Positions 9,166 through 64,000 of a stretch of DNA of 64,000 nt are shown one piece after another. Every line of letters starts with the position of its first letter. The stretch's first letter is position 1. The position numbers and the translations under genes are program-made. Source of the stretch: Vicugna vicugna (taxonomy: Eukaryota); assembly GCA_013265495.1 (NCBI GenBank), contig MU057484.1, forward strand, positions 1-64,000. Direction: 5' to 3'. The notes beneath the pieces are model-generated. The model searched no databases, had not been told where the DNA came from, and saw only the letters and a program-made list of their open reading frames with translations.

Positions 9166-9289
9166 CTGTCGAAGGTGAATGTAAACCGCATTCTGGAGAA
9201 ATTCGGGAGCTTCTAGGCTCCGCTTCTGGATGGCAAGGACACGGACAGCTTTTAAGCATGCTTCTAACTGAGTCACAGGCATTCTTACA
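9166..9289 (-). pseudogene. TRAPPC9: TRAPPC9 pseudogene exon 7
   Basis: ctgcag|TGTAAGAATGCC...CTTCGACAG|gtgagt. Encodes CKNA/(2-bp deletion)[37 protein letters not shown] versus recalled TRAPPC9 [42 protein letters not shown]. 124 nt versus 126 expected. Confidence 0.93.
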
Positions 9290-15969: not shown

Positions 15970-16090
15970 CTGCTGTAACAGTGTATGGCCCCCTTCTATT
16001 TGTCACTTGTGTTTTCAGGGCTGAGGCAGTACTGAGCACGGCCAGTGTCAGTGCTGGTGTCTGGATGGATGCCACTGGAGGTGAGGGCAT
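15970..16090 (-). pseudogene. TRAPPC9: TRAPPC9 pseudogene exon 6
   Basis: ttgcag|ATGCCCTCACC...TACAGCAG|gtgctc. Encodes [38 protein letters not shown] versus recalled [40 protein letters not shown]. In-frame TAG at 15996-15998; 121 nt versus 122. Confidence 0.92.
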
Positions 16091-24085: not shown

Positions 24086-24112
24086 ATAGATCAATGAAAA
24101 TTTCTTGTACCG
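24086..24112 (-). pseudogene. TRAPPC9: TRAPPC9 pseudogene exon 5 (27-nt microexon)
   Basis: cttgttctttcttccag|CGGTACAAGAAATTTTCATTGATCTAT|gtacgt. Exactly 27 nt, VQEIFIDL versus recalled AQEVLIDP, and located between exons 3 and 6. Confidence 0.8.
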
Positions 24113-32139: not shown

Positions 32140-32260
32140 CTCCAAGCCACAGAAAATCATTCACTGACCGGAGCAGCTCCAGGACATAACGGTGATGGAT
32201 CAGGGAGTCCTGCAGCATCCCAGCCTGAAGATACAAACCTCACATGTGCCCTGGTGATGT
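32140..32260 (-). pseudogene. TRAPPC9: TRAPPC9 pseudogene exon 3
   Basis: Encodes [35 protein letters not shown]|gtaagg versus recalled [36 protein letters not shown]. In-frame TGA, ~25-bp 5' deletion (121 versus 146 nt), acceptor appears as ctgg instead of ctag. Confidence 0.92.
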
Positions 32261-40573: not shown

Positions 40574-41143
40574 CTGCTGTCTCTGTCCAGTCCCATGAAG
40601 TCCTCCTTCTCAAACAAGGTGCAGATGAGGGGGATCTTGTCCCCAGACTTTTTGGGGGCCCTATCCAGCCACCTGGACTTGAGAAAGATGAAAAGTGACT
40701 CAGTGAAGTCCTCGATCCTCTTCTCCATCAGCCTGCAGTCCTGGTAGATTAAAGGCCACGTCAGTGCGCGGCTGCTCGGCTAACTCTCCATGCAGCACAA
40801 AGAGCTGAGAGTCATTAAGCGAGGTGCCATACAGCTCCTCTGCACGTGGAGCTTCTCGAAGGCCGTGGCTGAGAGGCAGTTGGTAATGGTGACAAGGCCC
40901 ACGACCTTGCCTTGGTGGGTCTGGAAGTTTCTCCACCTGATCTCGGGTGCATAGTGGTGCCTGTAGTGGATGCAGAGTGCCCGACGGGAGTCGCATGGGC
41001 TGATCTGACTCACCAAGGAGATTTGCTTATAGATGCAAAAGAAATTCTTTTCTGAGATGATCCCAACGGCTTGGACCACCACGGGAAGAATCTGGTCATT
41101 CTCAACGCACTGCATGTAGTCAGGGATGCCCATGTTGCAGGCC
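40574..41143 (-). pseudogene. TRAPPC9: TRAPPC9 pseudogene exon 2 (first coding exon, ATG at 41133)
   Basis: Polypyrimidine tract + cag|ggcctgcaac[35 protein letters not shown]...[26 protein letters not shown], then [29 protein letters not shown] and [52 protein letters not shown]|gtaatt in shifting frames, versus TRAPPC9 MSVPDYMQCAEDHQ...DFVGLDTDSR. Two frameshifts (-1, -5) plus in-frame indels; 570 nt versus 594. Confidence 0.96.
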
Positions 41144-44170: not shown

Positions 44171-45319
44171 ATTAGAAATATAAAACCAAGTCATTAAAAA
44201 TGTAAAAGAACACTAATCCTTGTAGCTGTAGGTGGTGGACAATTCTGGGTGAAAGCAGCAATTCCACTGGATCACTCCAGCACTGACTGTCACCCTTTCT
44301 GACCATCAGAGTGTCACTTGGCTACACTGAGGTTACTTTTCTCTTATGTGAAAGGCTACATTTGGAATTAACAATGTATAGAATCTCATAATTCAGAAGC
44401 CCAACAATTAGTGAGGACTTTCCATGGGCCAGGCTCTGGACAGATGAGAAGATAGGGTCTCAGATATATTCATGGGTAGAAGAAGTTTATGCCATAAAGA
44501 CATTAATTCTTCCTGTTTTGATAGACAGAGTCAATGCAATTCTGATTAGAATTCCTACCAGATTTTTCATGGAATGTAACAAGTTAATTTATGGTCAGGA
44601 ACAGCCAAGAAACTTCTTTAGAACCACCACTGGGGAGGGGTGGATAGGTCATTCATTACCACTGTTATTTCTGAAGTGATGAAAACGTTCTGGAATAATC
44701 ATTGTTGCACCACTGTGAATATGCTAAAAGCTGCTGAATTGTACCATTTAAATGGATGGACTTCATGGTGTGTGAACAATATCACAATAAAACTGTTATA
44801 TGAAAAAATATTTCTTGACCATTATATTCCACTGTATACAACTAGTCTGCCGCACAATTTAAGAAAAACAAAAAACCAAAACAAACCAAACTGTGCCAGG
44901 AGCTCTTTAGGACTGCAATGTCCCTGGGTCTCCAATGCCTCTGGTGGTACTGTTCCTGTAGACACACACTAACTGGGTTGGACTGGTTAGGGAATGTAAC
45001 TATCTTTCTAAAATCGACGGTCATATGTTTCACCCTGGGAGAGGGAAGACTGGAGGATGTCACAGACTCGTGTCTTCAGCTCATTTTTAACTGAATCAAG
45101 CCCTGCTTTCAACACTGTAATCCCTCGCACTATAAAAACACGTGACATCATCAAGCACCACCATCATAACACCTGAAAGTGTTCAAGGAACTTACCTGGG
45201 GCAGAAACACTGAGGGAGGAGACGGAAGCTCCCTTAGCACTGGTGCTCCCTTTTCCAGACTCCACCAGGAGAAGCTGGGCTTTACAGCCTAGTGCCCACG
45301 CCACTAAACTCGTCCTGAG

Positions 45320-45910
45320 GGAGCGGGAAAGTGAGAGGAGGGCAGCCCCGGGGTCACGGGGCAGGGAAAGCGGGGGCTGGGGACGCGGGCTGCAGCCAAG
45401 CTAAGATACCAGCCCCAGGCCCAGCTGCTCGCTCCCGTCTGGGTCGGCAGACACCGCCCGCCCGGGACACAGCCCGCCCAGGGACAGGCAGGGGTAGGCA
45501 GCCTAGGAGAGGAAGCCCGGGAGGAGAGGACTCGCGGGCGGGAGAGGGGAAGGGGACGCCAGCCGAGGACTGAGGGGAGCCCGACTGGGGCGAGAGGAGG
45601 CAGATGCACACTTGGACCTGGACAGTTGTGGCCGGGGCAGATGTCTCGGGCAGAGGGGCCTGGCCAGAGCAATTCAGCTGAACACACACCCTCGCGGGCT
45701 GTGACACGCGGACCGCCCTCCCGCAGCCGCCTGACCCCTTTCCCGGGAGCCCCCAGTCTTGCACTTCCAGTGCCGGAGTCCCCGGACCCGGGCAGGAGCC
45801 AAAGGCCTACCGGGCGACAGAACTGAGAAGCCTTTGGGGCCTTTCCCTGTCTCAGAGCTGGAGCTTCCAATCCCCAGTCCAGCTGGCACCGATTGCGCAT
45901 GCTCCGGAGG
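45320..45910 (-). promoter_or_regulatory. TRAPPC9: Partly CpG-decayed CpG island; duplicated TRAPPC9 promoter/non-coding exon 1 region
   Basis: High GC and CpG content ~4.5 kb upstream of exon 2. Candidate donor ggg|gtcagg at 45735/45736, NRF1-like TGCGCATGCTC at 45894-45904, and ETS-like cacttccagt (decayed cacttccggt) at 45762-45771. Confidence 0.7.
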
Positions 45911-46138
45911 GCCAGCCATCCTCTGGGTTCTGAGAGAAGCTGGGGAAGTGAGGGAGGGAGAAGATGGGAAGAGTTGGGTAGGAGGGGAAAAGTGGAGGGA
46001 GACAGATGGACAGGAGGTGCAGAGAGAAGGGAGTGATCTGGAGGGGGGAGGGGAGTAGCAGAGATGGAGAGAAAAAGCTTTACCTCTGGGGGCACCCTGA
46101 AACAGGCGGCAGTCCTGCCTCTGTACCCTTCTCTAACC

Positions 46139-46170
46139 CTTCAAGGCCCGCAGCTCAAATTTTACCTCCC
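46139..46170 (-). pseudogene. TRAPPC9: Homologue of the 3' end of the upstream alternative first exon of the long human TRAPPC9 isoform
   Basis: Minus strand GAGGTAAAATTTGAGCTGCGGGCCTTGAAG = EVKFELRALK, matching the recalled N-terminal extension ...TEEVKFELRALKDWDFKMSVPDY. Confidence 0.65.
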
Positions 46171-46577
46171 TGGTCCAGCCCTAGCGCCAAGGCCTCTGCA
46201 GAACCCCTACGGGGATCACACCAATTGCCCCCATGCAGAGCTGGGTTTCCTGTTGCTCTGGGAACAAAGCATCAGCGAGTGTTATCGCTCAGAACTACCT
46301 TGGGAAGAGTACATATTCCCCTTTTACACGCTGGGAAACAGGCAGGCACGATCTCTGCCTTAGCTCCACTGTCCCAGGTGTTGGGCTGGCGGGGAGCGGG
46401 AGGTACAAGATCAGAGCCCCAGACAGAGCAGACTACCTGATTGTTGGTGCATAGTCCCCATCCCTCATGAGTAAACCTCACCCCACCCTAGGGGAACCAT
46501 CAAGGGCTCACAGTAGGTCCCTGGGTGTGGGAGAGCTGTCCACAGTTCCAGTGCCCAGCTTGCTAGGTAGATAGGAG

Positions 46578-47056
46578 TGTTACCGAGTCCAAATTCATTC
46601 TCCTCAGTGCAAGACAGGCTAATAATTTGTGAGACCAGGTGTTGGGGCATGGAATAGCAAGTTTCTGTAGACCTTGATGGCAAACTAATGTCCTGGAAAA
46701 TCATCTCCCCAAGTCAGAATTCAGGCTCCTTTCCTATGTCCTTGGTTGTAGCAAACTTCTTGGTGTAGGGATTCTTGTTAGAATCCTTTTTTCTTGCAGC
46801 TATCTGCCTGAGTCAAATCTCTGTATACCTCCAGCAAACCACACGTTATTTTCTATTCTGCAACTTGTTATCTGTTTAGCAATGAAAAAGTGTTAAATAT
46901 CCTTGAAGGTCTGAGCCTTAAAAATAGGCTCTCCTGTATATTTCAGGTGCTAGGCAACATTGTTTCACAAGCAAAATGAAACCTAGGAGACAGAGCACAG
47001 GGTTAAAGTCAAAGGAAAGATCTAGTATGGAGCCAGATTTGTTCTTTTCTATTACC
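46578..47056 (-). mobile_element. ERV1-type solo LTR (termini related to the 10434 and 47717 LTRs)
   Basis: tgttaccgagtccaaattcattc... and ...ggagccagatttgttcttttctattac are reverse complements of the termini of the 10434 LTR; the interior differs. Confidence 0.75.
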
Positions 47057-47716
47057 CGGGCAGAATTCACTTAAGGATTTAAACCCCTTTAAGTTAAAAA
47101 TAAGTAAAAGTTTAAAGGAAGTTACATACATAGGTAGGAATGTGCATAGCGTATCTGGAAAAGCACACAAAGGATAATAAAAAGTGCCATCTCCAGGGAG
47201 GTCTGAAAGAACAGAGGGTGAGGGAAAAGTTCTTTCACTTGTGTATTTTTGTGCTCTCTTTGAATTTTTTTAACCATATGCATGCATTTCTTTTTCAGTT
47301 AAAAAAATTGTAATGAAGCAAAGAAGTAACTAGCACAGCAAATAGAGCAGCCATGGAATCACTGAGCCATCGCTTTTAATTTAAGCCAGGAAACATTTAT
47401 TGACTCTCTCCTATGTGCCAGGTGCTGTTTTAAGACTTCTTTTATTAGTTTTATTTTTATTTTATAAAATAATAACATGCTATCCCTCACCCCTGCCCAG
47501 GGCTGGTGGAAAGCCAACTGAGTTTTTCTTGAGTTGTTTTCCAAGGAGTAGAGTTGAGTTATAAACAGAACACATCTTCAGAGCAAAACAGTCGGAGGGT
47601 TTTCCCGCAGGCCAGACAGCTACGAAGCGTTTACAATAGAGGCGCCCAGAGGCTGAGAGAGAAAACCTCCAGGACCCTTCAACAAGCTGCCCATAGTGCC
47701 TTCTCCATGGCACTAC

Positions 47717-48243
47717 TGAAATAGGAAAGAACAAATCTGACTCCATATTAGATCTGTTCTTTTGACTTTAACCCTGTGCCCTGTTTCCTAGGCTTAGGCT
47801 TGTTGGTTTTGCACCTTTTGTAAAACAATGTTGCCTAGAGCCTGAAATATACAGGACACCCTATTCTCAAGGCTCTGACTTTAAAGGATATTAACACTTT
47901 TCCATTCATATAAAGATAACAAGTTACAGAATAGAAAATAACATTTGTTTGTTGGAGAGTTTGTTGGAACACGGATCTGACCCAGGTGAAGAGCTGCAAG
48001 AACAAAGGATTCTAACAACAAAGAATTCATAAACTAAGTTTGCAACAACCAAGCATTCCTGCTTCCCCTTTTTAATATAAAAAGAGCCTGAATTCTATCT
48101 TTTGGAGATGGTTTTCAGGACATTAGACCTCCATCATCTCAGCTGGCTTTACAAATTTAAGATGCTATTTCTTGCCCCAAAACCTGGTCTCCCGATTTAT
48201 TGGCCTGTAATGCAGGAGCAGAATGAGTCTGGACTTGTAAACA
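47717..48243 (+). mobile_element. ERV1-type solo LTR, same family as 10434-10970
   Basis: tgaaataggaaagaacaaatctgactccatattagat...gatttattggcctgt...ggacttgtaaaca aligns along its length with the 10434 LTR. Confidence 0.85.
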
Positions 48244-49056
48244 CAAACAGACATTGAAAGTACCCATTTGATATATTCAATGACCTGCTTCCACTCGTCT
48301 TCCTGACGTTTTCTTCTCTTGACAACTCCTGGTACGTTTATGAAAACCCTGTCATGTGGACACATTTGCATCTCTAGCCACTACCCTTCCATGTAAAAAC
48401 TGATGCCAAGAAGGCAATGGAAGTTGCTAGAATTTATTACCTGGCCAGAAAAGAGCAGAAGTGGTTACTGGCTGATGTTCAGGAGCAGGCTGGGACACCT
48501 GACAATATGTCATAAGTACGGATAGACAGCTGAGCACCAAAGGAGAAGCTTCTAAGCCTCCATGAGGGACTTGTTGGATAGGAAGGAAACGTCCCAGCCT
48601 ACAGCCCTGATCCCACCACGAGCATCCTGAGCGAGGCTGGACAAGTCACTTAAATTCTCCAGGCCCGTGCTGTCGACCATGGGAGCCACCAGCCACATTC
48701 AGGATTATGAAGTTATTCTGTAGCCAGACAGAATTATAAATACACATTTTATTGCAAAGGTTCAACAAGTATAATATTTAAAAACATTATTGGTTTTCTT
48801 GCCCTAACGAGTTATTTTTCTATGTCTAGCTTTCTGTGGTTTGCAATGCCTACAACTAATGATTCCCTTACAGTGAGTTATTTTGAAATTATAAGTTACT
48901 GGACACAGTACACTCATATCACACTTGAAAAAAATTGATCCACATAAGCAAGGTGGTCTGACTTAGTAGTTATGATCAGGGGCTCTGGGGTCAGCCTGCC
49001 TGAGTATAAATTCTCATTCTGCCTCCAGGGGGTTCTGTGTGAATCTTGGAAAAACT

Positions 49057-49070
49057 GTTGTTGCTGCTGC

Positions 49071-49111
<41 letters not shown>
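49057..49111. repeat. (GTT)n/(GCT)n microsatellite
   Basis: Directly visible. Confidence 0.9.
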
Positions 49112-49276
49112 GTGCCTCTTTTTCCTTCCCTTTTAAATAGCGAGGAATATTTAGACTCTATCTCGTACCGTGTTGCCAGGATTAAATGAGTAAACGTCTG
49201 TGCTGCCCACTTCCCTGGGTTTCAGTATTCTCCAGGCAATCAGTGCCAAACTCAGAGGCATTCTTCACTCTCTTCG

Positions 49277-49620
49277 TCAGTCTGGGATGCTGTAACAAAT
49301 TACCATGGGTCGGGTGGCTTAAACAACCAGCATGTTCCTTAAGTTTTCGAGGCTGAGGTCAATGTGCCTGGGAGAGGATAGCCTTCATGGCTGAAAGATG
49401 GCTGTCTTCCCACTATCTTCATGGGGTGGAGAGCAGAGAGAAGCAAGCAATCTGGGGCCCTTTATAAGGGCACTAATCCCATTCATGAGGGCTCTACTCT
49501 CATGACCTCATTTTATCCTAGTAATCACCCCCCAAAAGCCCCACCTCCCAATACCATCACCCTGGGAGATGGGGTTTCGACATATGGAGTTTGAGAGTAT
49601 GCAAACATTCAGTCCACACA
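49277..49620. mobile_element. MaLR MLT1-type LTR
   Basis: gctgtaacaaattaccat, ataagggcactaatcccattcatgagggctctactctcatgacct, ccaataccatcac, aacattcagtcc. Confidence 0.8.
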
Positions 49621-49939
49621 TCGGCTAACTCTCCCCAACATGCAATCATCAAACCTGTAGCTAATTTCACAGTAATGTTTATATCTCTCTGCCTGGTTCC
49701 ATTCCTGCATCCACTAACACTGAAGCCCTGTTATATTTTATTCCTTATTTTGCTGGTAGAGATTTAGTTGATTCCTCTACTCCGATGCTCTCCTCACACC
49801 AAACAGTCCTCTTAAAAGCCCTGCCAGGTAGGTCTTCCTTAAAACACCTTCCCACTGCACCTGGTTGTTTTTTAGGTGTAAATGTCAGAATCCTTTCCAC
49901 ACCCCAGCCTAGAATTTTAATCCCTTACACTACCGCTCA

Positions 49940-50330
49940 CTATGTTATCTCTCTATTACCACTGTACCAAACTTCCATAAACTTAACAGCTTAAACCAGC
50001 ACAGATTTTTCACCTTATGGCTGTGGAGGTCAGAGATCCAACACATTTCACATTGAGCTAAATTCAAGTTACCAGCAGGGTTCCTTCCTTCTAGAGGATC
50101 TAGAAGAGAATATTTCCTTGTTTTTGTTTTTTTTTTTCCAGTTTCCAGAGGTCACCCACCTTCCTTAGCTTGTGCCCCACGACTTCCTCCATTTTCATGG
50201 CCAGCAGCCTTTCTGAACACTACTCCATGGCTACACTTCCCTCTGATTTTAAACTCAGCTGGGCTATGTTCTCCATTTTAAGGACCCCTGTGATTACATT
50301 TGGCCCACCTGGACAATCCAGGCTACTCAC
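49940..50330. mobile_element. MaLR MLT1-type LTR fragment
   Basis: aaacttaacagcttaaacc, ggaggtcagagatcc, aaggacccctgtgattacatttggcccacctggacaatccagg. Confidence 0.7.
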
Positions 50331-52414
50331 CCTGTTGTCTCATCTCAGGATCCCCTTCTCCCCTCCCATTCAGGCATTATGTATGTTGCTGTGACACTCA
50401 CTTTGTGTGACATTTCCTCTCATGAGCAATTTAAGGTTCAAGGCACTTATGAACGACTTTTTGTTTTTCTTCCTTAGTCTTTCTACATTCAGTATGTGTG
50501 GTGAGATTATATGAATCCTTTTTATTTGTGGCCCTCCACTAATCTTTAATAATGTGTCATGGATTTACAAGGCTAATAGACAATTTAGAAGACAGAAATC
50601 CTCTAAGATTTTTCTCCTAATATCTCTGTCATCCCTTTTGCCATGTACAGTAACATGTCACAGTTGGCTAACCTGTGGTGGGGGAGGAACATGATTCTGC
50701 CACCACACTCCCCTCATTCACACCAATTTGATGATTGGCTAACCAAGGATCTATGCTCCCCGCTTCGCTCAATTCCTCCTCCTTTCCATTGACTATCCTG
50801 TTCCTACTGCTTCCTTCATTCACCATATCACCATTTCATGACCACATTTTTCTCTAAATAAAATGGATATCTTGCATCTAATGTCTGATAACTGTTCTTA
50901 TTGTATATGCACACACTGACCTACACATAACCCCACCCATCTCTTTATTTTCCTAGAATCTTCCAGAGGAATCAGTTCCATGATGATGATTATGATGATG
51001 ATGATGATGATACTGACAGTGATGACAGAGGCCTCTCAAGGATTCTGATAAAGAGGGAATAAATAAAGGGAGGGAATCATTGCAAAATAAATAAAGGAAT
51101 CATTGCAAAATTGCCCCAGAAACAGGCTTAAAAGTAAATAACTGCTAAAGTGTTTAATGAAATTGACTAATATTTAACTATTTTTAAAACTTTGTAAAAC
51201 TGTATTTAAAATTTTAATGGGAATTCTCATTCACCCCTAACCAAGATTCAACTCTAGGACAAAAATCTAAGGATTTCTATCTTCTAAAAAATTGTCCACT
51301 AGCCTTTTAGACAGATGATGCTTTGAAAAGGGTATGTGCTGGGCTGAAAATAAGCAGGGTTCATATAATCTCACCAGACACAGTGAATGGGGAAAGACCA
51401 AGGAAGAAAAACAAAAAGCCATTCATAATGTCTTGAAACTTACATTGCACACAGGAGAAAATGTTAGCCAAGGTGGGTGTCACATCAACATGACGCCTGA
51501 GTGTGATGGGGAAGCTGATCTTCCTCATCAGACATTTATTATGATTTGTTAGATGACAACACAATTTCCTCATTGAATTTGCTTCTTATATGTATGGATG
51601 AGTTTAGGCTCTACCAAGAGCAGACTAAACATTTTCCCCTGCTGTCAGGTCACTGGAGAGAATGTCCCCACAAGAAGGATATGATTAGGTTTCATAGGGA
51701 AGTCTTCCTGAGAAGCAACAGGCTTTTCGAGGGCAGAACTGCAGGTCCCCGCTTGGAGGGCTGGAGGAGGGCTAGAGGGGACACTGGAAATGCAGCATGA
51801 GTGAGTTCAGATACTGCTGCTCAGGTCGCCAAAGTCAGCAGTGCTATCTCTAAGGAGATGTCATTCTCCAAAAAGTTCCATGAGTGAAGGAGCCTGTGAA
51901 TGCTAAGCAGGTTTTTAAGACAGCAGCACATAATTTCATCACAACTCAATTACAGTATGTTTTGATATTTGGAAAATAATTAGCGCATTGATCTTTGAAA
52001 CTGCAGCAGTAGCAATAGAAATAAAAAAGACAGCCATCTTGGAGACAACAATCAATAAACAATTCTAAATCTGCAGGATTCCTTGGCAATATGCAACCAA
52101 TGAGCTAAATGTGTGCTGCAGATACCTCTTTTTACAGGGCTCACTCCTGCAAAGCATAGAACTAATTTTCTCAGCAGACAGAGGGAACCAAGTCAAGATT
52201 CCTAATCTTGAGAGGTTTACTAAATGGCAGGAAAGATCAGACAAGTACATACAGCCAAATATGAATAAATGTAATCAAATATTATGAAATGTGAATGGAG
52301 CACAGACGAAAGAGAAATTCCTTTCACCTGGGATCTAGAGAGACTTCTCCAAAAATGTGGCTTTGGAGATGGCCAAAGACATGGGTGGAATTTTGGCAGA
52401 ACAGGATGTAAGGA

Positions 52415-53992
52415 ATTTAAAAACTGATTCTAAAATTCATATAAAAATGCAAAGGATCCCGAATATCCAAAATAAACCCGAATATCTAATTTTGAACAAG
52501 AAAAACAAAGTTGGAAGACTTACACTATCTGATTTTCAGACTTTTTTTATAAAGCTACAGTAATCAGAAAGTATGGTGTTGGTGTAAAACAGGAAAATAG
52601 AATAATGGAACAGAATAGAAAGTTCAGAAATAAACTAACACTTAATTAGAAAATTGATTCTCAAAAAGGATGCAATGGAGAAAAGGATCTTTTCAACAAG
52701 TAAAGCTGGAATTGTTAGATTGTGATATGCAAAAAAAAAATGAACTTTGATCCACACCTCACAAAATATATAAAAATTAACTCAAAGTCGATCATAGATC
52801 TTAATAGGAAATCTAAAACTATAAAACAGATAGGAGAAAAAGCATAGACTTAAGCTTTATGACCTTGGGTTTGGCAAACATTTCTTTGCAATGACACCAA
52901 AAGTAAAATCTATTTTAAAAAGTAACTGATATAGTGAAGTTTACAAAATGAAGGCTCTTCAAAGCTCTTCTAAACACTGCAAAGCAAATGAAAAGACAAG
53001 CCATAGACATAAGCTATTTGCAGATCATATATCTGATAAAGGTCTCTCTTTGTGTCTGATCCAGAATAAAAAGGTTTCAAAACTAAATAATAATGCAAAC
53101 ACCTGAATGAATGAATGAGGCCAGAAAACACACTTCACTAAAGATATCCAGATGGATAACAAGTATATGAAAAGATGCTGTTTAAAGATGCCATTAGTCA
53201 TTAGAGAAATGCTTTCAAAAACCGCAGAGAGATACTAGTACACACACATACTAGAATGTATACGATTAGAAAGACCGACCTTACAAAGTGCTGGCAAGGA
53301 AGTAGAGCAACCAAAACTGATACACACCACGAGGAATTTACAATAGCACAACCATTTTGGAACATTATTTAACAGTTTCTTTAAAAAAGGTAAACACCTA
53401 TCTACCATATTACCCAGACATTCCTCATCTGATGCTTTAGGAAATAAAAGCATATGTCCATACAAAGACTTGTAACCAAATATTCACTGCAATATTATTT
53501 ATAATAGCTCAAGTTGTAAATAACCCATGAATCCATCAAGAAGTAAATGGAGAAACAAAGGATGGTCTATCCAAACACTGCTCACAATAAACTATTCAGG
53601 AAAAACTCAGCACCAAACAATACTCTGCTATAAGCAAAATAAGCTATTAATACAGCAACACAGATGACACTCAAAATAATTACACTGAATGAAAGAAGTC
53701 AGACAACATAGAGTAGATACTTCATGAATCCATTCATACAAGGCTCTTGAAAATGCAAACCAGTATGTTGTGATAGAAAGCAGATCAATGGTTTCCGGGG
53801 GAATAGATGGGGAGGGAAGGAGGGACAACAAAATACAGGAGAAGAGTTTTGTGGGTGATGGATATGTTCACTGTCTTGAATGTGGTCATGGTTTCTTGGG
53901 GATATACTTATGTCAAAACATATTAAGTTGTACACTTTAAATGTGTGAACATTATTTTGCCAAATATACCTCAAAGCTGTCTTAAGAAAAAA
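52415..53992 (+). mobile_element. L1 (L1MB-like) ORF2 3' half and 3'UTR
   Basis: aacaaagttggaagacttacactatctgatttt, aatggaacagaatagaaag, aaaattaactcaaa, gggtgatggatatgttcactgtcttg. Confidence 0.85.
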
Positions 53993-56339
53993 GGCACTTC
54001 TCTCCTGACACAACTCAGGGCCTGATTGGAGTGAGACGATCAGTCCCTCACCCTGCCTGCCTAACGGGAAGGTAGAAAACCTCTCATGGAAGATAAGATA
54101 TGGATTTTTCATTTGCAATGTCTGCCATGTAATAAAGAATTTCTAGACATGCAACATGTCAAGACTTCATGATGGATAATATGAGAATAAGAAACATTAG
54201 ACAATGGATGCAAACCCCCAGGTGATGTAGGCATCAGAGTTACCAATAAAGGCTATAAAATACTTTTAATATATTCAAGAAAATAAGGAAATGATGGGAG
54301 AATATATAACAGGGTGAAGACTTTCACCAGAGAAATATACTGGAATGTATTTTTAACAAAAATCAAACAGATAATCTAGAACTGAAGCTTTGAGCTCTGG
54401 AAACAGGTAAACAGAGCTAATAAGGATCCCTTTTAAGTAAAGCTTTCAGTAATGCCGGTTAAAGTACAACAACAACAGTAACACAGAGCTAACTATGGAG
54501 AGAGAAGTTCCCAGGTGACAATACAAAGAGGACACTTAACGCAAAAATGGTAATCTTGTTAGCTGATGCCACCGCACCCTGGAGGGAAGGGGTTTTCATC
54601 TGCACATAAATAGGGATACAATATCCATTTAGGAAAAAGGGTCCATACCAGATGTAGAAGAGTCTTCCTTTATAGAAACCTCTTCATAAGACATATTGGA
54701 AGACTTGCCTCTTCACTGAAAGGGAGAGTCAATGTTCTCCACATGTGCACACAGGAAAGGGGTGAAACAACTTGTTCTCTATGGAAAAACAAAGTCTCCC
54801 TTAAAAAAATCTAATCTCCACGCCCCTGCTTTATATGAATGTGGAATCCAAATTAGTACTCCACTTAAGATTCCGGAATCCCCAAACCAAAAAATATAAT
54901 AATTCAAGGTTGATCATATCACCTGGAGCCTTAGGATATGCAACACAAAATTGTTCTCTAGGGAAACTTCAAAAACCAGGATGTAAGGGGCAATCATAGG
55001 AAAAAAAAATGTACTCACTATAGAGAAGCTCCCACAACTCTACACACACACAGACACACAACTAAAAACAGAAGGAAATAAGTGCCACAGGGAAGAAAGA
55101 GCTAACTGTAAAACACAGGATGATTAATATTCCAGAGCCTAAAACTATGAAACAATCTAAAAGAGAGCATAAAAGAGTATGACTGAACCATTGAAAGATA
55201 AAATGAATTATATATAACATAATGAAAAATCAGGACATCATGAAAAAGAAAACAGATCAATTTTTTTAAAGAACTAAACAGAACTTATGGAAACAAAATA
55301 CAGATATCATTTGGTATATAAAATTCAATGTATGGGTTAAGGAACATTTTAATCTTCAATATCTAGGGTGTTCATTAAAATTCAACAGTAATCTCTAAAT
55401 TAATTGTTTAAAAAGAGAATAAAAATAAAGTAGTCAAAATGAAGAATGCAAAATAGGCCAGTCACTATTCTAAGATCTTCATATATTTTATCACTTAATG
55501 CTCACAAACTTTGAGATGGATAATACCACTTTTTGTATATGAAGAAAGTGAGTCTCAAAGGGATTACATATCCTGGTTACACGGCTGGCAAGGGAGGGAA
55601 CCAAGCCCGGATAGGCTGTCTCTAGACGCAATGCTCTTAACCGTGACTGCAAGGTATATAACAGGCAGGAGAAAAGCAGAGCAAAGCAAATAGAAATCAC
55701 AAAACAAGTTGCCAGAAATAAAACATCATCACTAATCACAATGTATTTAGATGAAATAAATAATGAGTTAAAAGATTTACAGATTTCATTTGTTTACCTG
55801 AGACAAAGCAAAATTAAAACTTAAAACTGGTTGAAAGCTTAGAAGAATAACAGAAAGAAGTCAAAAGTTAAGCCAGAAAAAGAGACACCTGAGAAATACT
55901 AATCAATGGAAAGGGAATCACTCAAGCCTCCCTCAGGTTCATAAGTACCTGAAATCCACCTTGGCCTGACACTTACCAGCTCTGTGCCTGAGCAAAACAC
56001 TCAATCCCCCGGAATCTTCGTTCACTCACCTGTGAATGTAAGGAATGATCCCTCCTTCCATCCTTCCAAATTGTAGTGACTGCTGTGCCACAGGTTATGG
56101 TCAAGCCACCTGAGGTCCGTCAGTGAACAAATAAGGATCCTTGTCCCTGTAGGACTGAGGAAGAGCAGAACATAAACTACAGTCATGGCAGTCATGTGAA
56201 ATATATGGTATTCTAGAAGGTGATAGAAATAATATGATCAAGGAGAGGGGGTTTCTGGGGCAGAGACAAGGGGAAGGCAGTTTCCACTTTAAAATGAGAT
56301 GGCCGGAGCTGGCCTCACTGAGGACCTGGAGAAGGGGGT

Positions 56340-56725
56340 GCTAGTTGCTGAGCTTCCTCTAACACAGCACCGCACACTGGGTGACGGGAACCACAGAGGC
56401 TCACTGTCTCACAGCCCTGGGGGCGGGGAGTCTGCAGGCAGGGTGTCAGCAGGGCTGGTTCCCCCTGAGGGCTGGGAGGGAGAGGCTGGTCCAGGCCTCT
56501 CTCCTTGGCTTGGAGACGACCGTCTTCTCTCCACATCTCGTCACGTCATCTCCCATGTACATGTGTCTCTGTGTCCACATTGCCCCTTTTTATCAGGACA
56601 CAAGTCATACTGGATTAGGGCCAACCCTAATGACCTCTTCTTAACCAATGACATCTGCAACAACCCTATTACCAAATGGGGTCATGTTCTGTAGTCCTGA
56701 AGGTTAGGACTTCAGCATATGAGTT
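56340..56725. mobile_element. MaLR MLT1-type LTR
   Basis: aggacacaagtcatactggattagggccaaccctaatgacctc, ggttaggacttcagcatatga. Confidence 0.8.
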
Positions 56726-57139
56726 GGATAGAGACTGGCCAAGGCAACAGGCCTGTGGGTGCATGTCTGATGTCCCCAATGTCCAGCAGGGAGGCCAGTG
56801 TTCCTGGAGCGGAGTGAGCCAGGGAGAAAACTGGAGATGAGCTCAGCTTGGGGAGGGGGAGGATATCTGTAAGGTCACCATAAGGACTCTCGCTTCTTCA
56901 CTGAGTGAAATGAGAAGCCATCGCGGGATTTTGAGCAGAGAAGATCACACCCAGGGTCACAATCATGCCTGACTTAGGCGATGAGGATGAAAATATTTAG
57001 GTTTTTGAGCTGATAATAGTTAGACTACATGTTGGACTTTGAGTTGATGGTATAGTAAATGAGACTCTGTAGGGTTTTGGGATGAGGTGGATGCATTTTG
57101 CATGTGGGATGGACAAGAACCAGTGGGGCCAAAGGGAAG

Positions 57140-57592
57140 AACTTGGTAGAAAAATGGCCCCCAATATGTCCACGGTCTGATCCCTAGAACCTGGGAATAT
57201 GTCACTGTACATGGCAAAAGGGACTCTGCAGGTGTGACTGTCAAGGATCTTAGGATGGCAGATCACTGTGGGAAAGCAAACGTCATCATGGACTTACTTA
57301 GAGGAGAGAGGCAGGTTGGTCAGAGACAGAGATGTGAAGTGGCAGCAGACGTCACAGTGACACAGGGCCCTGGGCCAAGGAGTGTGAGCACCTCTGCAAT
57401 CTGGGAAAGGTAGGAATATGAGTCCCTCCCAAGAGCCTCAGTGTGGAACATAGCCTTGGCCACACGTTGGTTTTAGCCCACTGACATTGACTTTGCACTT
57501 CTGCACCCCAGAATAGTGAGACAATGGATGTGTGTTACTTTAAGCTACTGAGTCTGTGGTCCGTTTTACAACAGCAATAGGAAAGGAACTCA
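57140..57592. mobile_element. MaLR MLT1-type LTR
   Basis: aaaatggcccccaatatgtccac, acatggcaaaagggactctgcagg, tttacaacagcaataggaaa. Confidence 0.8.
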
Positions 57593-57877
57593 GGAACCAA
57601 TATGAACATGAACCACATGCTGCCTGCTGTGCTGGCAGGGAGTTCTCTGTCTCTGAACCTGGGGGAGTGTCCTGTCTTCTGCAGCATCCACAAACTACCT
57701 CATGCTAACTTGGCAGCTTGCAGGTGGTCAAATCTTAACCCTGAACTGTTCTTGATATTTAGCTAATAAAAAAGATGGTGTCATCATGGGTATTTTTCCA
57801 TCTTTTAAATACACTTCAGTCTTCTAATTGAGAGACCGTGTATATAGTTTTCAATCTTAATAATAAATAACTGTGGT

Positions 57878-57883
57878 TTTATT
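57878..57883 (-). terminator. Candidate polyadenylation signal (AATAAA) of the duplicated MRAP2 3'UTR
   Basis: tttatt on the + strand, ~1.5 kb downstream of the MRAP2 stop, in AT-rich UTR-like sequence. Assignment is inference. Confidence 0.4.
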
Positions 57884-59406
57884 TGGTTACTTAAATTATG
57901 AATAATAATATTCACATTAGTAAAAGTTATTAAAATCAACATTCTTCAATGAAAATATCAAGTTTCTTTTTGCATGAATATGTATTAACTACAAGAATTG
58001 TTCCATGCTTTGTTCTACGATTTAGTGTTAGAGTCTTAAAGAATAATATTTTCCTCAAAAGATATTATGGCGAGGGGATTTCTTTCGGTGGTACATTTCC
58101 TACATAAAATATGGTGCATGGCTCAGGCAACTGGGAACCTAGAGATGACAGAAATAAGGAGGCATTATAAACACAGAACAATTTTTAAAGGAATTAAAAA
58201 ACTGGATGTGTGAAAACAATGGATCAGAGAATATTCTGGTGAAATAAAAGTATTTTTCAGCTTAAGCAAGACACTGGGTGAATAAATCTAAAATGAAAAA
58301 AACACCCATAGATTAGCAGCGAGTCATGCATGCAGTGTGACTGATCAAAACCAAGTTGTTTCCAAACCAGTGTGCAGGCTTGATGCCTTCATGAATCAAG
58401 TCTGTGTAGCACCAGTCCACCTCGAATACATGTTGATGAGGTATTTATAAGCCCTTCACCATCCCAGCTCAAAGCCCACACACGAGCCACACAACCACCA
58501 CCTACACGTCTGCAAAATACACATCATGGTGAATATCACTTTTCTTGCTCAGCAGCTGGTGGCAGGGCACTGAGAGCAGACACAGATACAGGGACACAGG
58601 GACACAGAGGCACCTCCCCTCACTCAGCTGATTACCTTCCGTGCATTCCTGGGGACAGGATTGTCATAAAATTCACCATGCATTGATCCTCCTCCTAGGA
58701 AAGAAACAACAGGTTTGTCCTCAGGTTTGAGCAAGAGTGGCTGGGGGATCTCAGAAGAGCTGTTTCAGCACAACCAATAGAAATGATGGCCACCGTGACC
58801 ACGAGAGACGTCTCCTGCCATCTCGGTAGGCACTTGGGCTCCTGACAAAAGCTGGGCTCAGTAAAGTGTTGAGTGGGAGGCACAGACCTGAGGGAGGCCC
58901 CAGCAATAGGCAGGAGGTAGGGCCTGGTTTATACTGCTCTGGGTGTATCCCAGCCTCATCCGAATAAGAAATCAGAAATTTGCAAAACAGCAGAGCTGTG
59001 ATGGATCACCTACTCCAGACTCCTCTCCTTACAGTTAAAAGGGTGGCAGCCCTGAGAGACAAAGCAACGTGCTAAAGGCAGAGCGTGGAATGGCAGTTCC
59101 AGATAAAACGCACCGTGCCAACCCCCGTTCTAGGCCGCTAACACTGAGTATGGGGCCAAGGTTTCCAACTAGGAGAATGAGACAGTGTAAATTCTTTGTT
59201 CCCCCCAAAACCCCAAATGTTTTTTAAAGGCACAAAAACTCACCTTAACTAGCTCTCTTCTGAGGGGGCTCTCTTCTGCTTCTTCGTCTTTCTGTCTCCA
59301 TTTCCCTCTCTCAGACACAAACACATACAATTTTGTGAAAGGGGAATTCCTGCCACACAAAGACAGACTTCACATCTTCAGAAAGACACGTGACAAAGCA
59401 CATTTC

Positions 59407-59796
59407 TCAATTCAAGTCTTTGTGTGAGGTCTGAACAACTGGTTTATATTCTAGAACAATTGGTGGTTCCAAAATCAGGAGATCATCTTCCCCAAAGAAA
59501 GAGTTCTGGTCTGTGTTGATGAAGTTGGGGATGTCACATTTCATGAGCCTGTTCGGCTCCTCCTCTGGCCACCTGCTGCATCTGATAGCTTCCTGGAGCC
59601 GAATATCACTGTCAAGGGCAATGGTTGAGATACCAGCATTGGCCTTGTCCAAGTGGTCCACTTCATAGACATAGCAGTGAAAGAGGGACCTAGATTTGTC
59701 ATTGCACTGCCAGAGAACACCTTGGGCACCAGCGGTCTTCAAAAGTCTGACACAAAGCTGTTCAGTCTGAATCTCTTCTCGGGAGACTCTGCATTG
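59407..59796 (-). pseudogene. MRAP2: MRAP2 (melanocortin receptor accessory protein 2) terminal coding exon, pseudogenised
   Basis: ttttctttatag|C AAT GCA GAG: NAESPEKRFRLNSFVSDF*RPLVPKVFS/(1-bp deletion)QCNDKSRSLFHCYVYEVDHLDKA...DIPNFINTDQNSFFGEDDLLILEPPIVLEYKPVVQTSHKDLN* versus recalled MRAP2 DNAESSEKRFRMNSFVSDFGRPLEPDKVFSRQGNEESRSLFHCY...QTSHKDLD. TGA at 59739-59741. Confidence 0.95.
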
Positions 59797-60039
59797 CTAT
59801 AAAGAAAACCAAAATAAAAGATTGCTCACACTCTAGCTTGGTGACCTGAAGAATCATACTTTTTGCCATCTACTGAGTGCAAGTCCATGCACAGAGCACG
59901 CTTACAAGCACTGGAAGTGAGAGACATCACTTCTGAACACATACAATTAAACCCAAGGCAAAAGTCTCAAGTGAGGGCCCTTGGACCATCCTGAAAAGAC
60001 ATCTTTCCCTGAGAATCCTCACTATTGCTATATCACACA

Positions 60040-60210
60040 ACACTGTTTCTCAATGGGACACTCAGATCATCTTCATCAGAATTAGTTAAAGTGCTTCTTA
60101 AAATGCAGAATTCTGGGGTACAGATACTCAGCGTCTCCAGAGGTAGGGACAGGTAGTCTGTATTTTCAGAGCCGCCAAGATCACTAAACACGCTAAGGTT
60201 TAACACCGCC
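60040..60210. mobile_element. MER5-like hAT DNA transposon remnant
   Basis: cactgtttctcaa...catcagaatt...cttcttaaaatgcagaattctgggg...gtctgtatttt...ctaaggtttaacaccgc. Confidence 0.55.
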
Positions 60211-60833
60211 ATGTACATCGGGTCACCTGAGCATAGACAATGCTGTCTCATGCGGTGGGGGGTTGCCATGTGTGTCAGGGTGCTGTCCTACCCATGAGAC
60301 TCCCCTGATTCTCAGAACTGACAGTGCTGCCCCATTGGGCAAGAAATACCACCAGTTTACAATGCATACACAGGGCGCCCGACTGACAGATACTATCAGT
60401 GGTAGGAGAGGGCACAAAACTCAGGTTCCTGATCCCTCGTTTCACTTACTATGGGACAAATGATCAATTCAAGGGTAATAAATCAGTGAATGAGTGAATA
60501 ACATGACTCTCGTTAGTCCCAAGAGTGCCTGGAAGAGCAAGCCTGGGCACACTGAGAACCATCCCATCTACTTAAATGTCATCCTTCCCAGATTTATGTA
60601 AAGGTTACTTCCACCCAGGCAGTGACTCCTGAAGGGCAAGAATCATGTCTGAACACACTCTCAAATCCAGAACAGAACCTGACAAAAATTAGGCTCTGGA
60701 GTCTGTGTTAAGGGAGTGTGGAATCTCAGTGATTCCAGCTCTTACACCTTGCCTTCCCATCCCACCCCTCATGATATGGCCCTTATGACCAGTTCTCCCG
60801 GGGCTGGGGCCACGGAACCAATTTACAGGACTG

Positions 60834-61097
60834 GGAGAATCTGATCATATAAACCATCCCCCAGATAATCATCAAGAGTCACCTGCATTTCAGGGATCAG
60901 TAATCCCAGAAGCTTTGCAGTTCAGGCAGCTGAGGGATTTTTATATCAGCTGTGTCTTCTTGTGAGGAGAATCTGATCATATAAACCATCCCCCAGATAA
61001 TCATCAAGAGTCACCTGCATTTCAGGGATCAGTAATCCCAGATGCTTTGCAGTTCAGGCAGCTGAGGGATTTTTATATCAGCTGTCTTATACTGTGA
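60834..61097. repeat. Near-perfect 132-bp tandem duplication
   Basis: ggagaatctgatcatataaacc...ttatatcagctgt repeated at 60834 and 60966; one mismatch in the core (gaagct/gatgct). Confidence 0.95.
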
Positions 61098-61734
61098 CTG
61101 CCTGGGTGACATCAGACAAGGAATTCTCAAAAGCCTGAGCTTTTCCTTTCAGGAATAATCTACTTAACAAATCTCATTGACCATTTAACAAATGTGATGT
61201 GAAGATCAATGATTTACACAGGAGTACAACATTCACTAGGTCGTGGATTTTGAATCCGAGAAAAATCATTTGAGAAAGATTGACAGAATGTAGCTTTAAT
61301 GCAAATTTAAGTATTCTTACCTTTCAGTAAATCATCTTCTTCCCCTACTTGTCACTTCACCCAAGTTTAAAAGATGTTTGAGAACAGGGATGAGTGTGCC
61401 AGCATTCTGTGACCCAATAACCTAAAATGTCACCTAGGAAAAAGAGGGGAGTAACACATTTTTAAAAAGTATGGTGAGGACAGTGAGACCATCCTCCAAC
61501 TTCACACTAAGAAGCTCTGAGTAATAACTTTCCTGCCTGCCTGGGGCATCAGCTGATGTGAAAACCCACCTAGAAACCACAGTGTCCAGCAGCTCTTCTG
61601 TAACACAGGCTATACTTTCTCAGGATTAAGAATTGGGTCAAGTAACCCCTTCGCTGAAGAATAAACACAAAGGAGAACAAGAGAGTTCTTCCCCTCCCCA
61701 GGGGAGAGCCCAGACCTTGGGCTGCATGCACTGC

Positions 61735-63830
61735 GCCCACCTCCCAGGAGAAGGATAAACTGGAGAAGGACGTCCTGTGAAACTAGGGCAGCAAAGGTAG
61801 AGATGGGAACAAATTGACCAGCTGGCCTGGGACAGCCCCCTCCGTCGCTGCCTTGGCGGCTGCCTCTGCCCCTTCAGCACATCCTGCCCACCTCTGGTGG
61901 CTAAGCTGTCAGGGAAACAGTGCTTTGCGACCTGGGGCAACAGAGGCTGCCCCCAGGCCAAACTGCTGGGGAGATGGGAGCAAAACCACTAGCTCCCAAG
62001 TGGCAGGCTCCATACCTCGCCATCACCCCGCCGCCCCCGCACCTTAACGCACCCCCGGTGCAATATGACCCTGAGAAGGGTGACCTGGAAACGAGGCGCA
62101 ACAGAGGCCGCCCCCACGTCAGGCCTCCAGAGAGATGGGAGGTTATCCTTCAGCTCGCAATAGGCAGCACCCCTCTCCTCTCAACCCCCTGATCCAACCG
62201 CCCCCACCTCCCAGGAGCAACCTGACCTGGTGTGGTGTGTCAGGTGAATCTTGGGCGGGAGAGGCTGTTCCCAGGTGAGGTCAGGGGAAAGGAGAAGAAG
62301 TGGCCCCATTAGGTGGGGCAGCTGCGATGGGAGGCTCGACCTCATCGCGTCCGCCTCCCAGGAGCAAGCTGACCTGGAGACGGGCATCCGGCTTCTTGGG
62401 CAGCAGAGGACGTCCCCAGGATTGGCCACGGGGAAGAGGGGAGCAAATTGACAAGCTCTGAGCTGCAGGTCCTCTACCCCCGCCGTCGCCACTCTCGCAC
62501 CTTAAAGGCACTTCCCAGGGCGCCCCTCCCCAGCAGGCTGAATGGGACAGGTGTGGCTGCTGATCTGGGGCAGGAGAGTCCACTCCCACACCAGGCCATC
62601 GAGGAGACGGGAACCAATCCACCAACTCCCCAAGGCATCCCCATCCCCCCGCATCAGCCACTGCTCCTGCCCCCTGACCTCACGGTGGCCTCTTCAAGGG
62701 AGCAGGCTGACCTGGAGATGGACGTCCGGCGAACTTGGGGCAACAGGGACTGCCCCCAGGGCAAACCATGAGGGGAAATGGGAGCAAATGGACCGGCTTC
62801 ATGGGAAAACCCTCCGCTGATGCCACCATCCCCAACATACCACGCCCGCCTCCCGGGGTCAGGCTGACTAGGATACACGTGTCCCGTAACCCAGGGCAAC
62901 AGAGACCGCCCCCAGGACAAGCCTCGGGGAAGATGGGAGCAAATGGGCCCGCTTCCCCGCTGCAGGCCCCCGACCCCCGCCACCCCTGCACCCTGACTAC
63001 CCTGCCTCCCGCCCCCAGTTGGCTAAGTGGGACAGGGGTGTCCCGGGACCTGGGGCAGCAGAGGCCGCCTGCAGGCCACGCGGTGCAGACATGGAGCTAA
63101 TCCACAAGCTACCACAGGGCAGCCTCCCTATCCTCGCAAACACCAACTTACCAGCTCCCTGACCGCACCGCACCCATCTCCCAGGAGCAAGCTCACCTGA
63201 AGTCGGACCTCAGGCAAATCTCCGGCAGACGTCGCCCCTAGGCCAGGCCGCGAAGGAGAGAAGAAATGGAGCAGCTCCCTGGAATGGCCCCCTCCCCCTG
63301 GCGCCGCCACCCCGCCTCCCGGGGGCAAGCTCACCTGGAGACCGGCGTCCCGCCTCTAGGGCAGAGGAGGCCGCTCCCAGGCTCCACCGCGGGGGAGAGC
63401 GGAGAGAATAGACCGGCTCCCCCGTGGCAGCCCCCCTACCCCCGTGGGCCCCGCAGCTTAACGACACCGCCTCCACTCCCAACTCAGCAAGATGAGTGGG
63501 ACAGCTGTGTCCGGCGACCTGGGGCAGCAGAGGCCGCTTCCAGGCCCGGCAACCGGGAGAAGGCAGCTTTTCCACCAGTTCGCCAGAGGCAGCCCAGCTC
63601 CGCCCCCCTGCCGCTGCCGCCGCCCCCTGACCTAACCGCCCCACCTCCCAGGAGCAAGCTTACTTGGAGTCCAACATCTGGCGAATCTCCGGCAGCCAAG
63701 GCCCCCCCAGTCCAGGCTGCAGGGAAGAGAAGAAATCGACTGGCTTGCCCGGGCAGCCTCCCACCCGCCGCCGCCGCCGCCAACCATTGCACTAGCCTCC
63801 TGGGGTCAGGCAGACTGCGAGGATGTGCAC
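61735..63830. repeat. GC-rich degenerate satellite, ~150-165-bp monomer, ~13 copies, with a ~480-bp trimer higher-order period
   Basis: Recurring cctcccaggagcaagctgacctggag...gacctggggcagcagaggccgcccccaggcc...ggggaagatgggagcaaat. ccaggagcaa occurs at 62211, 62358, 63181 and 63648. Confidence 0.85.
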
Positions 63831-63861
63831 TTGCCTTCTGATCCTGGCCACGTGCCTGAGC

Positions 63862-63997
63862 ACCTCCCTGCACCCCTACACTCCCTGTACCTCTGCACCC
63901 CTGCCACTCTCTGCACTGCCTGCACCCCCGCATCCCCTGAACTGCCTGCACCCTCCAAAGCCCCTGCACCCCTGCCACCACTTACACCTTTGCACTG
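63862..63997. repeat. Degenerate (CCTGCACC)n / (GGTGCAGG)n short-period repeat
   Basis: ccctgcacccctacactccctgtacctctgcacccctgccactctctgcactgcctgcaccc. Confidence 0.85.
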
Positions 63998-64000
63998 TGT

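What the first reader, a model, noticed from the sequence alone, without database searches (positions are those of the whole stretch)
45320..59796. TRAPPC9 and MRAP2 duplicons juxtaposed in the same orientation: a mosaic segmental-duplication block
Seen: an MRAP2 terminal exon with its intronic acceptor lies ~13.5 kb upstream of the TRAPPC9-derived promoter, both on the minus strand. Known: in human these genes are on different chromosomes (TRAPPC9 8q24, MRAP2 6q14). Inference: a duplicon junction lies between ~46.5 and ~57.8 kb, and the region is a patchwork duplication hub like primate pericentromeric/subtelomeric mosaics. I am not aware of such a hub being described in camelids.
Basis: partly seen in the sequence, partly recalled or inferred. 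Interest (0 to 1): 0.75.

Follow-up and report, generated by a model that had tools for sequence, protein, structure and literature searches.

The report
Camelid MRAP2-TRAPPC9 patchwork duplication relic
Broken pieces of two unrelated genes (the tail of the appetite-signalling gene MRAP2 and the front of the trafficking gene TRAPPC9) lie side by side here because both belong to old duplicated DNA blocks copied to many places in camel and alpaca genomes; it is most likely decaying patchwork, not a new working gene.

Summary
Confirmed. On the minus strand lie the last MRAP2 exon (59796-59407, intact acceptor, AATAAA at 57883) and, ~13 kb downstream, a 37-kb intron-bearing copy of the 5' part of TRAPPC9 (46.4 to 9.2 kb). 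Both are decayed paralogues: frameshifts, stops, no sparing of conserved residues. Each belongs to a single-founder family with copies in both alpaca and Camelus (10 of 10 MRAP2-like and 20 of 20 TRAPPC9-like rows form one group). A third module, a GC-rich ~156-bp repeat at 61.7-64 kb, supplies predicted 5' exons to the MRAP2 exon in alpaca and dromedary copies. Both families share a 1.47-Mb dromedary scaffold and a 23.6-Mb alpaca contig, and one dromedary model links the MRAP2 exon to DNA matching 51.0 kb, so misassembly is unlikely. The junction is not mapped and no reads were laid across it; chromosome position is untested. None of 71 paralogue models fuses the two modules. This scan found the TRAPPC9 family before on other DNA; the MRAP2 module is the addition. 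Pseudogene-rich duplicated blocks in alpaca are in print (PMC13751797), without these genes. New member of a known kind.

The parts
61700..64000 (-). Degenerate GC-rich tandem repeat (period ~156 bp, higher-order ~469 bp) with recurring CAG|GT donor-like sites; third module of unknown origin; runs off the window end
   Evidence: Self-BLAST 65-67% over 0.8-1 kb; TRF period 156, shift peak 469, five CAG|GT(C/G)AG sites at 63337, 63199, 62714, 62376, 62229; alpaca models P0001, P0005 and dromedary P0007/P0228 start in it and continue into the MRAP2 exon
61321..61433 (-). 113-nt exon-like piece with AG and GT ends; origin unknown
   Evidence: Splice signals read; no fetched protein maps to it
59407..59796 (-). 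Coding part of MRAP2 terminal exon (exon 4) copy; net 4-nt loss near its start; read from its first base it gives an open 129-codon frame (29 new residues + MRAP2 C-terminal 100)
   Evidence: 89 nt versus 93 nt native
57878..59406 (-). MRAP2-type 3' UTR to the AATAAA at 57883-57878 (UTR identity inferred from position; native UTR length recalled)
   Evidence: Single AATAAA/ATTAAA in 59407-56000
50928..51044 (-). Stretch that is linked downstream of an MRAP2-like exon in a dromedary copy too
   Evidence: P0016 (KAB1252367.1) residues 4-82 match 59694-59458 and 83-119 match 51044-50928
46450..50900 (.). Repeat-rich interval not bridged by any paralogue model; holds two inverted, 73%-identical LTR-like copies (46577-47053, 47720-48244; LTR label recalled). 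The MRAP2/TRAPPC9 join lies here or between 51.0 and 57.8 kb
45320..46445 (-). Decayed CpG-island-like TRAPPC9 5' region (GC 0.66, CpG o/e 0.49 at 45501-46000), including the end of the upstream alternative first exon at 46177-46138 with donor GT
   Evidence: used as 5' part in 14 of 60 TRAPPC9-like models
45196..45314 (-). Exon with intact acceptor and donor, used in alpaca TRAPPC9-like models
   Evidence: P0057, P0086, P0088, P0090-P0095 map here
40574..41143 (-). TRAPPC9 first coding exon copy (exon 2 by recalled numbering; residues 1-195), ATG at 41133, frameshifted
32140..32248 (-). TRAPPC9 exon 3 remnant (residues 208-244) with in-frame stop
24086..24112 (-). 27-nt TRAPPC9 alternative micro-exon copy
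15970..16090 (-). TRAPPC9 exon copy (pig residues ~297-336) with in-frame stop
9166..9289 (-). Last TRAPPC9 exon copy found (pig residues ~342-378)

Best explanation
An old camelid mosaic segmental duplication made of at least three modules in one orientation: a GC-rich repeat array, a short MRAP2 piece (end of intron 3, exon 4, 3' flank) and ~37 kb of the 5' end of TRAPPC9. Shown: both gene pieces are DNA-level copies (introns and splice sites kept), each descends from one founder that already carried lesions, and each was copied to many loci before and after the alpaca/camel split. Inferred: the modules were brought together by duplicative transposition into a duplication hub and then spread by non-allelic recombination/tandem amplification, the MRAP2-TRAPPC9 neighbourhood being shared by at least some other copies. 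The products are pseudogene transcripts at most: the repeat array can donate 5' exons to the MRAP2 exon, which terminates at its own poly(A) signal, and the TRAPPC9 promoter remnant starts a separate truncated unit. The sequence drifts close to neutrally.
For: Single founders: 10 of 10 MRAP2-like rows group apart from 8 natives at 100/100, with 8 shared derived columns of 100; 7 of 7 models that include the exon start have the same shifted leader length (4 other models start later). 20 of 20 TRAPPC9-like rows group apart from 7 natives (SH-aLRT 99) and all lack the KDWP stretch that all 7 natives have. Spread: TRAPPC9-like models on 12 alpaca, 6 Bactrian, 4 dromedary, 3 wild-camel contigs; MRAP2-like on 2 alpaca and 5 dromedary contigs (tallied in 68). 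Co-occurrence: dromedary 1,473,704-bp scaffold carries KAB1252367 and KAB1252374 (MRAP2-like) and KAB1252378 (TRAPPC9-like); alpaca 23.6-Mb contig carries P0005 and P0049, the window's nearest TRAPPC9-like relative. Shared links: repeat-to-MRAP2 in 3 loci of two genera, MRAP2-to-51.0 kb in one. Drift: window changes 11 of 54 orthologue-conserved and 13 of 46 variable MRAP2 columns (Fisher P 0.48; all 11 paralogues 28/54 vs 28/46, P 0.42).
Against: No read, contig or second genomic locus was aligned across 46.5-57.8 kb, so the join itself is seen only in this sequence. Only 2 of the 7 named contigs with MRAP2-like models also showed a TRAPPC9-like model in the lists I saw (lists are capped at 15 members per cluster and mix assemblies). 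Co-occurrence on a 23.6-Mb contig is weak. The P0016 link is a predicted splice in a draft annotation. The selection test is protein-only, 100 columns, low power. No chromosome positions were available.
Confidence: 0.74

Rival explanations
1. Two separately amplified families (repeat+MRAP2 exon 4; TRAPPC9 5' unit) that merely meet here because both accumulate in the same hubs; the join in this window is private to this copy.
For: TRAPPC9-like models are far more widespread than MRAP2-like ones (25 versus 7 named contigs); several alpaca models run from one TRAPPC9 unit straight into the next (P0056-P0059, P0087-P0089); earlier scan notes report TRAPPC9 units next to POFUT2 or in tandem without mention of MRAP2 (unchecked).
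Against: Same-scaffold occurrence within 11 accession numbers in dromedary; same orientation of all modules (71 of 71 models map on the minus strand only); P0016 extends the shared MRAP2 flank to within ~4.5 kb of the TRAPPC9 5' region.
Confidence: 0.15
2. A functional camelid gene family: the GC-rich repeat acts as promoter/first exon and drives a soluble protein made of MRAP2's cytosolic tail without its membrane anchor, or a read-through MRAP2-TRAPPC9 chimera.
For: The founder's net 4-nt loss puts the last 100 MRAP2 codons in frame with a phase-0 splice; the frame is open over 129 codons here and RefSeq models P0001 and P0005 join repeat exons to it. The isolated exon-4 domain of human MRAP2 dimerises and binds PKR2 in vitro (PMC8946000 section 3.3).
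Against: Conserved residues are not spared; several copies stop early (P0003, P0004, P0005); annotated copies are biased to open frames; residues 78-131, sufficient for PKR2 binding in that paper, are about half replaced by the shifted leader; 0 of 71 models join the repeat/MRAP2 module to TRAPPC9 sequence (UTR exons are invisible to this test); TRAPPC9 exons carry frameshifts and stops.
Confidence: 0.07
3. Chimeric assembly: two collapsed repeat copies joined wrongly.
For: Multi-copy DNA is prone to mis-joins; the join was not checked against reads.
Against: No N in the window; independent dromedary and alpaca assemblies hold both families on one scaffold/contig, and three of the module links recur elsewhere.
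Confidence: 0.04

Closest known systems
Pseudogene-rich repetitive blocks of alpaca chr11, 17 and 36 (NEK10-like, ATF5, FMN2-like, ABHD17A-like; Mendoza-Cerna et al. 2026, PMC13751797; read: abstract, methods, results parts 1-2, section 14, first part of discussion, one supplement searched)
   Same: Fragmented multi-copy gene pieces from unrelated loci in a camelid, attributed to segmental duplication followed by decay, with GC-rich repeats interleaved.
   Different: Other genes (TRAPPC9 and MRAP2 occur 0 times in text and in the one supplement held as text); those blocks are reported absent or reduced in camel assemblies, whereas this family has copies in dromedary, Bactrian and wild camel and is spread over many chromosomes.
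Primate mosaic segmental duplications built around core duplicons (NPIP/LCR16a, LRRC37, GOLGA8; review PMC6920530, passages read)
   Same: Blocks of duplicons from several ancestral loci, a shared core (here plausibly the TRAPPC9 5' unit), new promoter/5' exons from unrelated DNA.
   Different: Human core families are mostly confined to one chromosome and half show positive selection on coding frames; this family is interchromosomal and looks decayed. Interchromosomal pericentromeric mosaics (recalled) fit better, but position is untested.
Parent genes MRAP2 (Pfam PF15183) and TRAPPC9/NIBP (Pfam PF08626)
   Same: 76% identity to native camel MRAP2 C-terminus; 65-68% to mammalian TRAPPC9 residues 1-103; splice sites kept.
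   Different: MRAP2 copy lacks the exons for the PF15183 membrane region (present in native P0355, absent in P0001, P0005); TRAPPC9 copy covers only the first third, with lesions.

Membership tests
Unprocessed (duplicated) pseudogene fragments | Introns and splice sites of the parent retained | tested here: met
   Five TRAPPC9 exon copies over 32 kb and the MRAP2 acceptor with canonical AG/GT ends
Unprocessed (duplicated) pseudogene fragments | Disabling lesions or truncation, intact parent elsewhere | tested here: met
   Frameshifts and stops; native camel MRAP2 with PF15183 on separate records; a native camelid TRAPPC9 record was not fetched
Mosaic segmental duplication | Adjacent modules from unlinked ancestral loci | tested here: met
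   MRAP2 and TRAPPC9 on different chromosome-size contigs in Kogia (91.7 vs 78.2 Mb) and chimpanzee (183.3 vs 155.7 Mb)
Mosaic segmental duplication | Block present in several copies | tested here: inconclusive
   Each module is multi-copy (met); recurrence of the full MRAP2-to-TRAPPC9 join is only indirectly supported
Mosaic segmental duplication | At least 1 kb at 90% or more DNA identity to another copy (usual operational definition, recalled) | not testable with these tools
   No genome held; best paralogue proteins are 82-90% identical
Pericentromeric/subtelomeric/NOR duplication hub | Chromosomal position near centromere, telomere or rDNA | not testable with these tools
   No coordinates for the window or paralogues; no canonical satellite array in the window
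Core-duplicon gene family (human type) | Copies mostly confined to one chromosome | tested here: not met
   TRAPPC9-like models on 9 alpaca and 6 Bactrian contigs over 20 Mb
Core-duplicon gene family (human type) | Maintained or positively selected coding frame | tested here: inconclusive
   No sparing of conserved columns; no codon-level test possible without paralogue DNA
Chimeric fusion gene | A spliced product joining both parents | tested here: inconclusive
   0 of 71 protein models join the modules; RNA reads not examined

The most novel reading that the evidence does not exclude
The TRAPPC9 5' unit is a camelid core duplicon that has seeded interchromosomal mosaic hubs since before the alpaca/camel split, and one captured module (GC-rich repeat first exons spliced to a frameshift-rescued MRAP2 exon 4) has become a camelid-specific, copy-number-variable family of soluble MRAP2-tail proteins able to modulate energy-balance GPCRs.
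Probability: 0.07. Interest if true: 0.8.

Novelty: new member of a known kind. Interest (0 to 1): 0.45.

Why it matters
It adds a third donor gene (MRAP2) and a promoter-like repeat to a large, apparently unpublished camelid duplication family, one that predates the alpaca/camel split and is interchromosomal, unlike the alpaca-only blocks in print. Practically, at least six dromedary GenBank models named 'MRAP2' and dozens named 'TRAPPC9-like' are these relics, which can mislead RNA-seq, CNV and selection scans on a metabolic gene of obvious interest in camels. It offers a non-primate test case of how mosaic duplication hubs form in a lineage known for a very stable karyotype.

Tried and rejected
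Pfam on 8 window ORFs: 0 families (the pieces lie outside or are too short for the models). PDB sequence searches of both exon frames: 0. Rfam on 52000-64000: 0. Run search on 56000-64000: 20 of 24 listed runs hold part of it (DNA shares 0.22-0.27; six RNA runs 0.06-0.11, three of them labelled reproductive system), none was laid, so they are not used as evidence. Origin of the GC-rich repeat: phmmer of one 149-aa frame against 1.84 billion representatives gave 1 hit, a repetitive protein with no tblastn match to the window; rejected. TRAPPC9 residues 245-287 (exon 4 by recalled numbering): no match in the window. Ten of 13 N-terminal extensions of native TRAPPC9 did not match the promoter region. 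Literature: searches TRAPPC9+camel+duplication (2 papers), MRAP2/TRAPPC9/alpaca (7), trafficking protein particle complex+Camelus+subunit 9 (1), MRAP2+camel+copy number (1) gave only unrelated listings (listings only); term searches in PMC6598621 and PMC13603154 found neither gene (passages only). The VicPac4 paper (Genomics 2026, cited in PMC13751797) did not appear in the search listing, and supplementary figures of PMC13751797 are not held as text, so they could bear on novelty. Earlier-finding look-ups by place, relatives and sequence returned nothing for the MRAP2 side. Native adjacency of the two genes rejected as an explanation because both pieces are decayed paralogues.
Full report
Observation. 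The window is camelid-like mammalian DNA without N; no whole genome is held. On the minus strand, the frame 59796-59407 finds 46 proteins among 50 candidates, all MRAP2-type where named; the 8 best are camelid (7 named, 1 unnamed) and 75-90% identical, the natives 51-76%. Native camel MRAP2 aligns in two frames, 59798-59712 and 59709-59410, a net loss of 4 nt (89 versus 93 nt). The acceptor is intact and a single AATAAA lies at 57883. No upstream MRAP2 exon is present. Human exon 4 encodes the 129-residue cytosolic tail (PMC8946000, section 3.3), which is what is copied here.

The TRAPPC9 side is larger than the finding says. Pig TRAPPC9 matches four exons at 41133-40573, 32248-32135, 16088-15969 and 9276-9160, plus a 27-nt micro-exon at 24112-24086; residues 245-287 and everything after ~378 of 1099 are missing. 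The first coding exon is frameshifted and two later ones carry stops. With its position 5 kb upstream of the ATG exon this supports TRAPPC9 parentage of the decayed CpG-island block (GC 0.66, o/e 0.49), but the match is short.

The parents are unlinked in outgroups: different chromosome-size contigs in Kogia (91.7 and 78.2 Mb) and chimpanzee (183.3 and 155.7 Mb). Native adjacency cannot explain the window because both pieces are decayed paralogues.

Both modules are families. The TRAPPC9 exon frame finds 14 proteins among 58 candidates, 14 of 14 camelid, truncated 'TRAPPC9-like' or 'uncharacterized' (that search missed the natives, so absence of non-camelid paralogues is weak evidence). With cluster members they lie on 12 alpaca, 6 Bactrian, 4 dromedary and 3 wild-camel contigs; MRAP2-like models lie on 2 alpaca and 5 dromedary contigs (tally in 68; member lists capped at 15). 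In trees, 10 of 10 MRAP2-like rows separate from 8 natives at 100/100 with 8 shared derived columns (9 of 11 fetched models plus the window were used), and 20 of 20 TRAPPC9-like rows (19 of 60 models chosen by contig, plus the window) separate from 7 natives at SH-aLRT 99, all lacking a four-residue stretch that all natives keep. Seven models that include the MRAP2 exon start, from alpaca, dromedary and unnamed records, have the same shifted leader length. So each module goes back to one already-damaged founder older than the alpaca/camel split (11-25 Myr in the introduction of PMC13751797). The window's copies are old branches: best identities 90% and 82%.

Alpaca models P0001 and P0005 and the dromedary pair P0007/P0228 begin in it and continue into the MRAP2 exon, so this link recurs in both genera. 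Its origin was not found.

Is the MRAP2-TRAPPC9 join real and shared? No reads were laid, so this is indirect. A 1,473,704-bp dromedary scaffold holds two MRAP2-like and one TRAPPC9-like model within 11 accession numbers; a 23.6-Mb alpaca contig holds P0005 and P0049, the latter the window's nearest TRAPPC9-like relative. Dromedary P0016 links the MRAP2 exon to DNA matching 51044-50928, and P0049 reaches up to 46445, leaving about 4.5 kb unbridged. Against: only 2 of 7 named MRAP2-like contigs showed both families; TRAPPC9 units also occur in tandem (P0056-P0059, P0087-P0089).

Function. Shown: splice sites survive, and paralogous loci are annotated with many isoforms (that this reflects RNA support is my inference). 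The shared 4-nt loss returns a phase-0 splice to the native frame for the last 100 residues, giving a membrane-less MRAP2 tail (no PF15183 in P0001 or P0005, present in native P0355). But the window copy changes 11 of 54 orthologue-conserved and 13 of 46 variable columns (P 0.48), the 11 paralogues together 28 of 54 and 28 of 46 (P 0.42) (the 40 natives define the columns, so their zero changes there are circular), several copies stop early, and 0 of 71 models join the repeat/MRAP2 module with TRAPPC9 sequence (UTR exons unseen). The likeliest reading is two separately terminated pseudogene units in a drifting mosaic block. The mechanism of assembly (duplicative transposition, then non-allelic recombination and tandem amplification) is inferred from primate precedent, not shown.

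Comparison with what is known. PMC13751797 (2026) reports pseudogene-rich duplicated blocks on alpaca chr11, 17 and 36, with other genes and reportedly absent or reduced in camel assemblies; TRAPPC9 and MRAP2 occur 0 times in its text and in the one supplement held. Human core-duplicon families share the mosaic design but are mostly intrachromosomal and often positively selected (PMC6920530, passages). Four targeted literature searches and two in-paper term searches found no description of this family; subscription papers, including the VicPac4 paper, were not seen. Earlier notes of this scan describe the TRAPPC9 family on other DNA (with POFUT2, in 54-kb tandem units, and with a spliced GC-rich repeat); none mentions MRAP2. 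I confirmed the multi-copy, decayed TRAPPC9 part myself; the POFUT2 and 54-kb claims I did not test.

Verdict. Real mosaic duplication relic; new member of a known kind. Interest 0.45: an apparently unpublished, old, interchromosomal camelid family with a newly noted MRAP2 module and clear annotation consequences, but probably without function. The boldest reading left open, a family of soluble MRAP2-tail proteins, has probability about 0.07.

Noticed in passing
window 1-5950: AT-rich (GC 0.28-0.36 over 1-5 kb) stretch with an LTR-like end at ~5.4-5.9 kb, resembling a decayed endogenous retroviral element (label recalled); the TRAPPC9 matches stop upstream of it.
   Followed up: no
window 10434-10973, 46577-47053, 47720-48244: Three 67-73% identical LTR-like copies; alpaca models P0055 and P0057 use sequence like the 10.4-10.9 kb copy as an exon spliced to TRAPPC9-like exons.
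   Followed up: partly
window 50349-50619 and 51255-51520: Inverted 270-bp pair at 75% identity, 630 bp apart; one copy seems to interrupt an MLT1-type LTR (label recalled), like an old templated inversion-insertion.
   Followed up: no
window 60834-61085: Very young 132-bp tandem duplication (99% identical) just upstream of the MRAP2 acceptor region.
   Followed up: no
window ~41575-41700, ~30090-30200, ~24980-25080: tRNA-derived SINE-like copies resembling the camelid Vic-1 SINE (name recalled), inside TRAPPC9-derived introns.
   Followed up: no
P0056-P0059, P0086-P0106 (alpaca models): Models run from the 3' half of the TRAPPC9 first coding exon into the 5' half of another copy, implying head-to-tail TRAPPC9 units; this subfamily is nearly identical across several alpaca chromosomes, a recent burst.
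   Followed up: partly
dromedary GenBank models KAB1264735, KAB1252374, KAB1271210, KAB1252349/50, KAB1251259, KAB1252367: Named plainly 'Melanocortin-2 receptor accessory protein 2' although they are exon-4-only paralogues; the native one is KAB1275568.
   Followed up: yes
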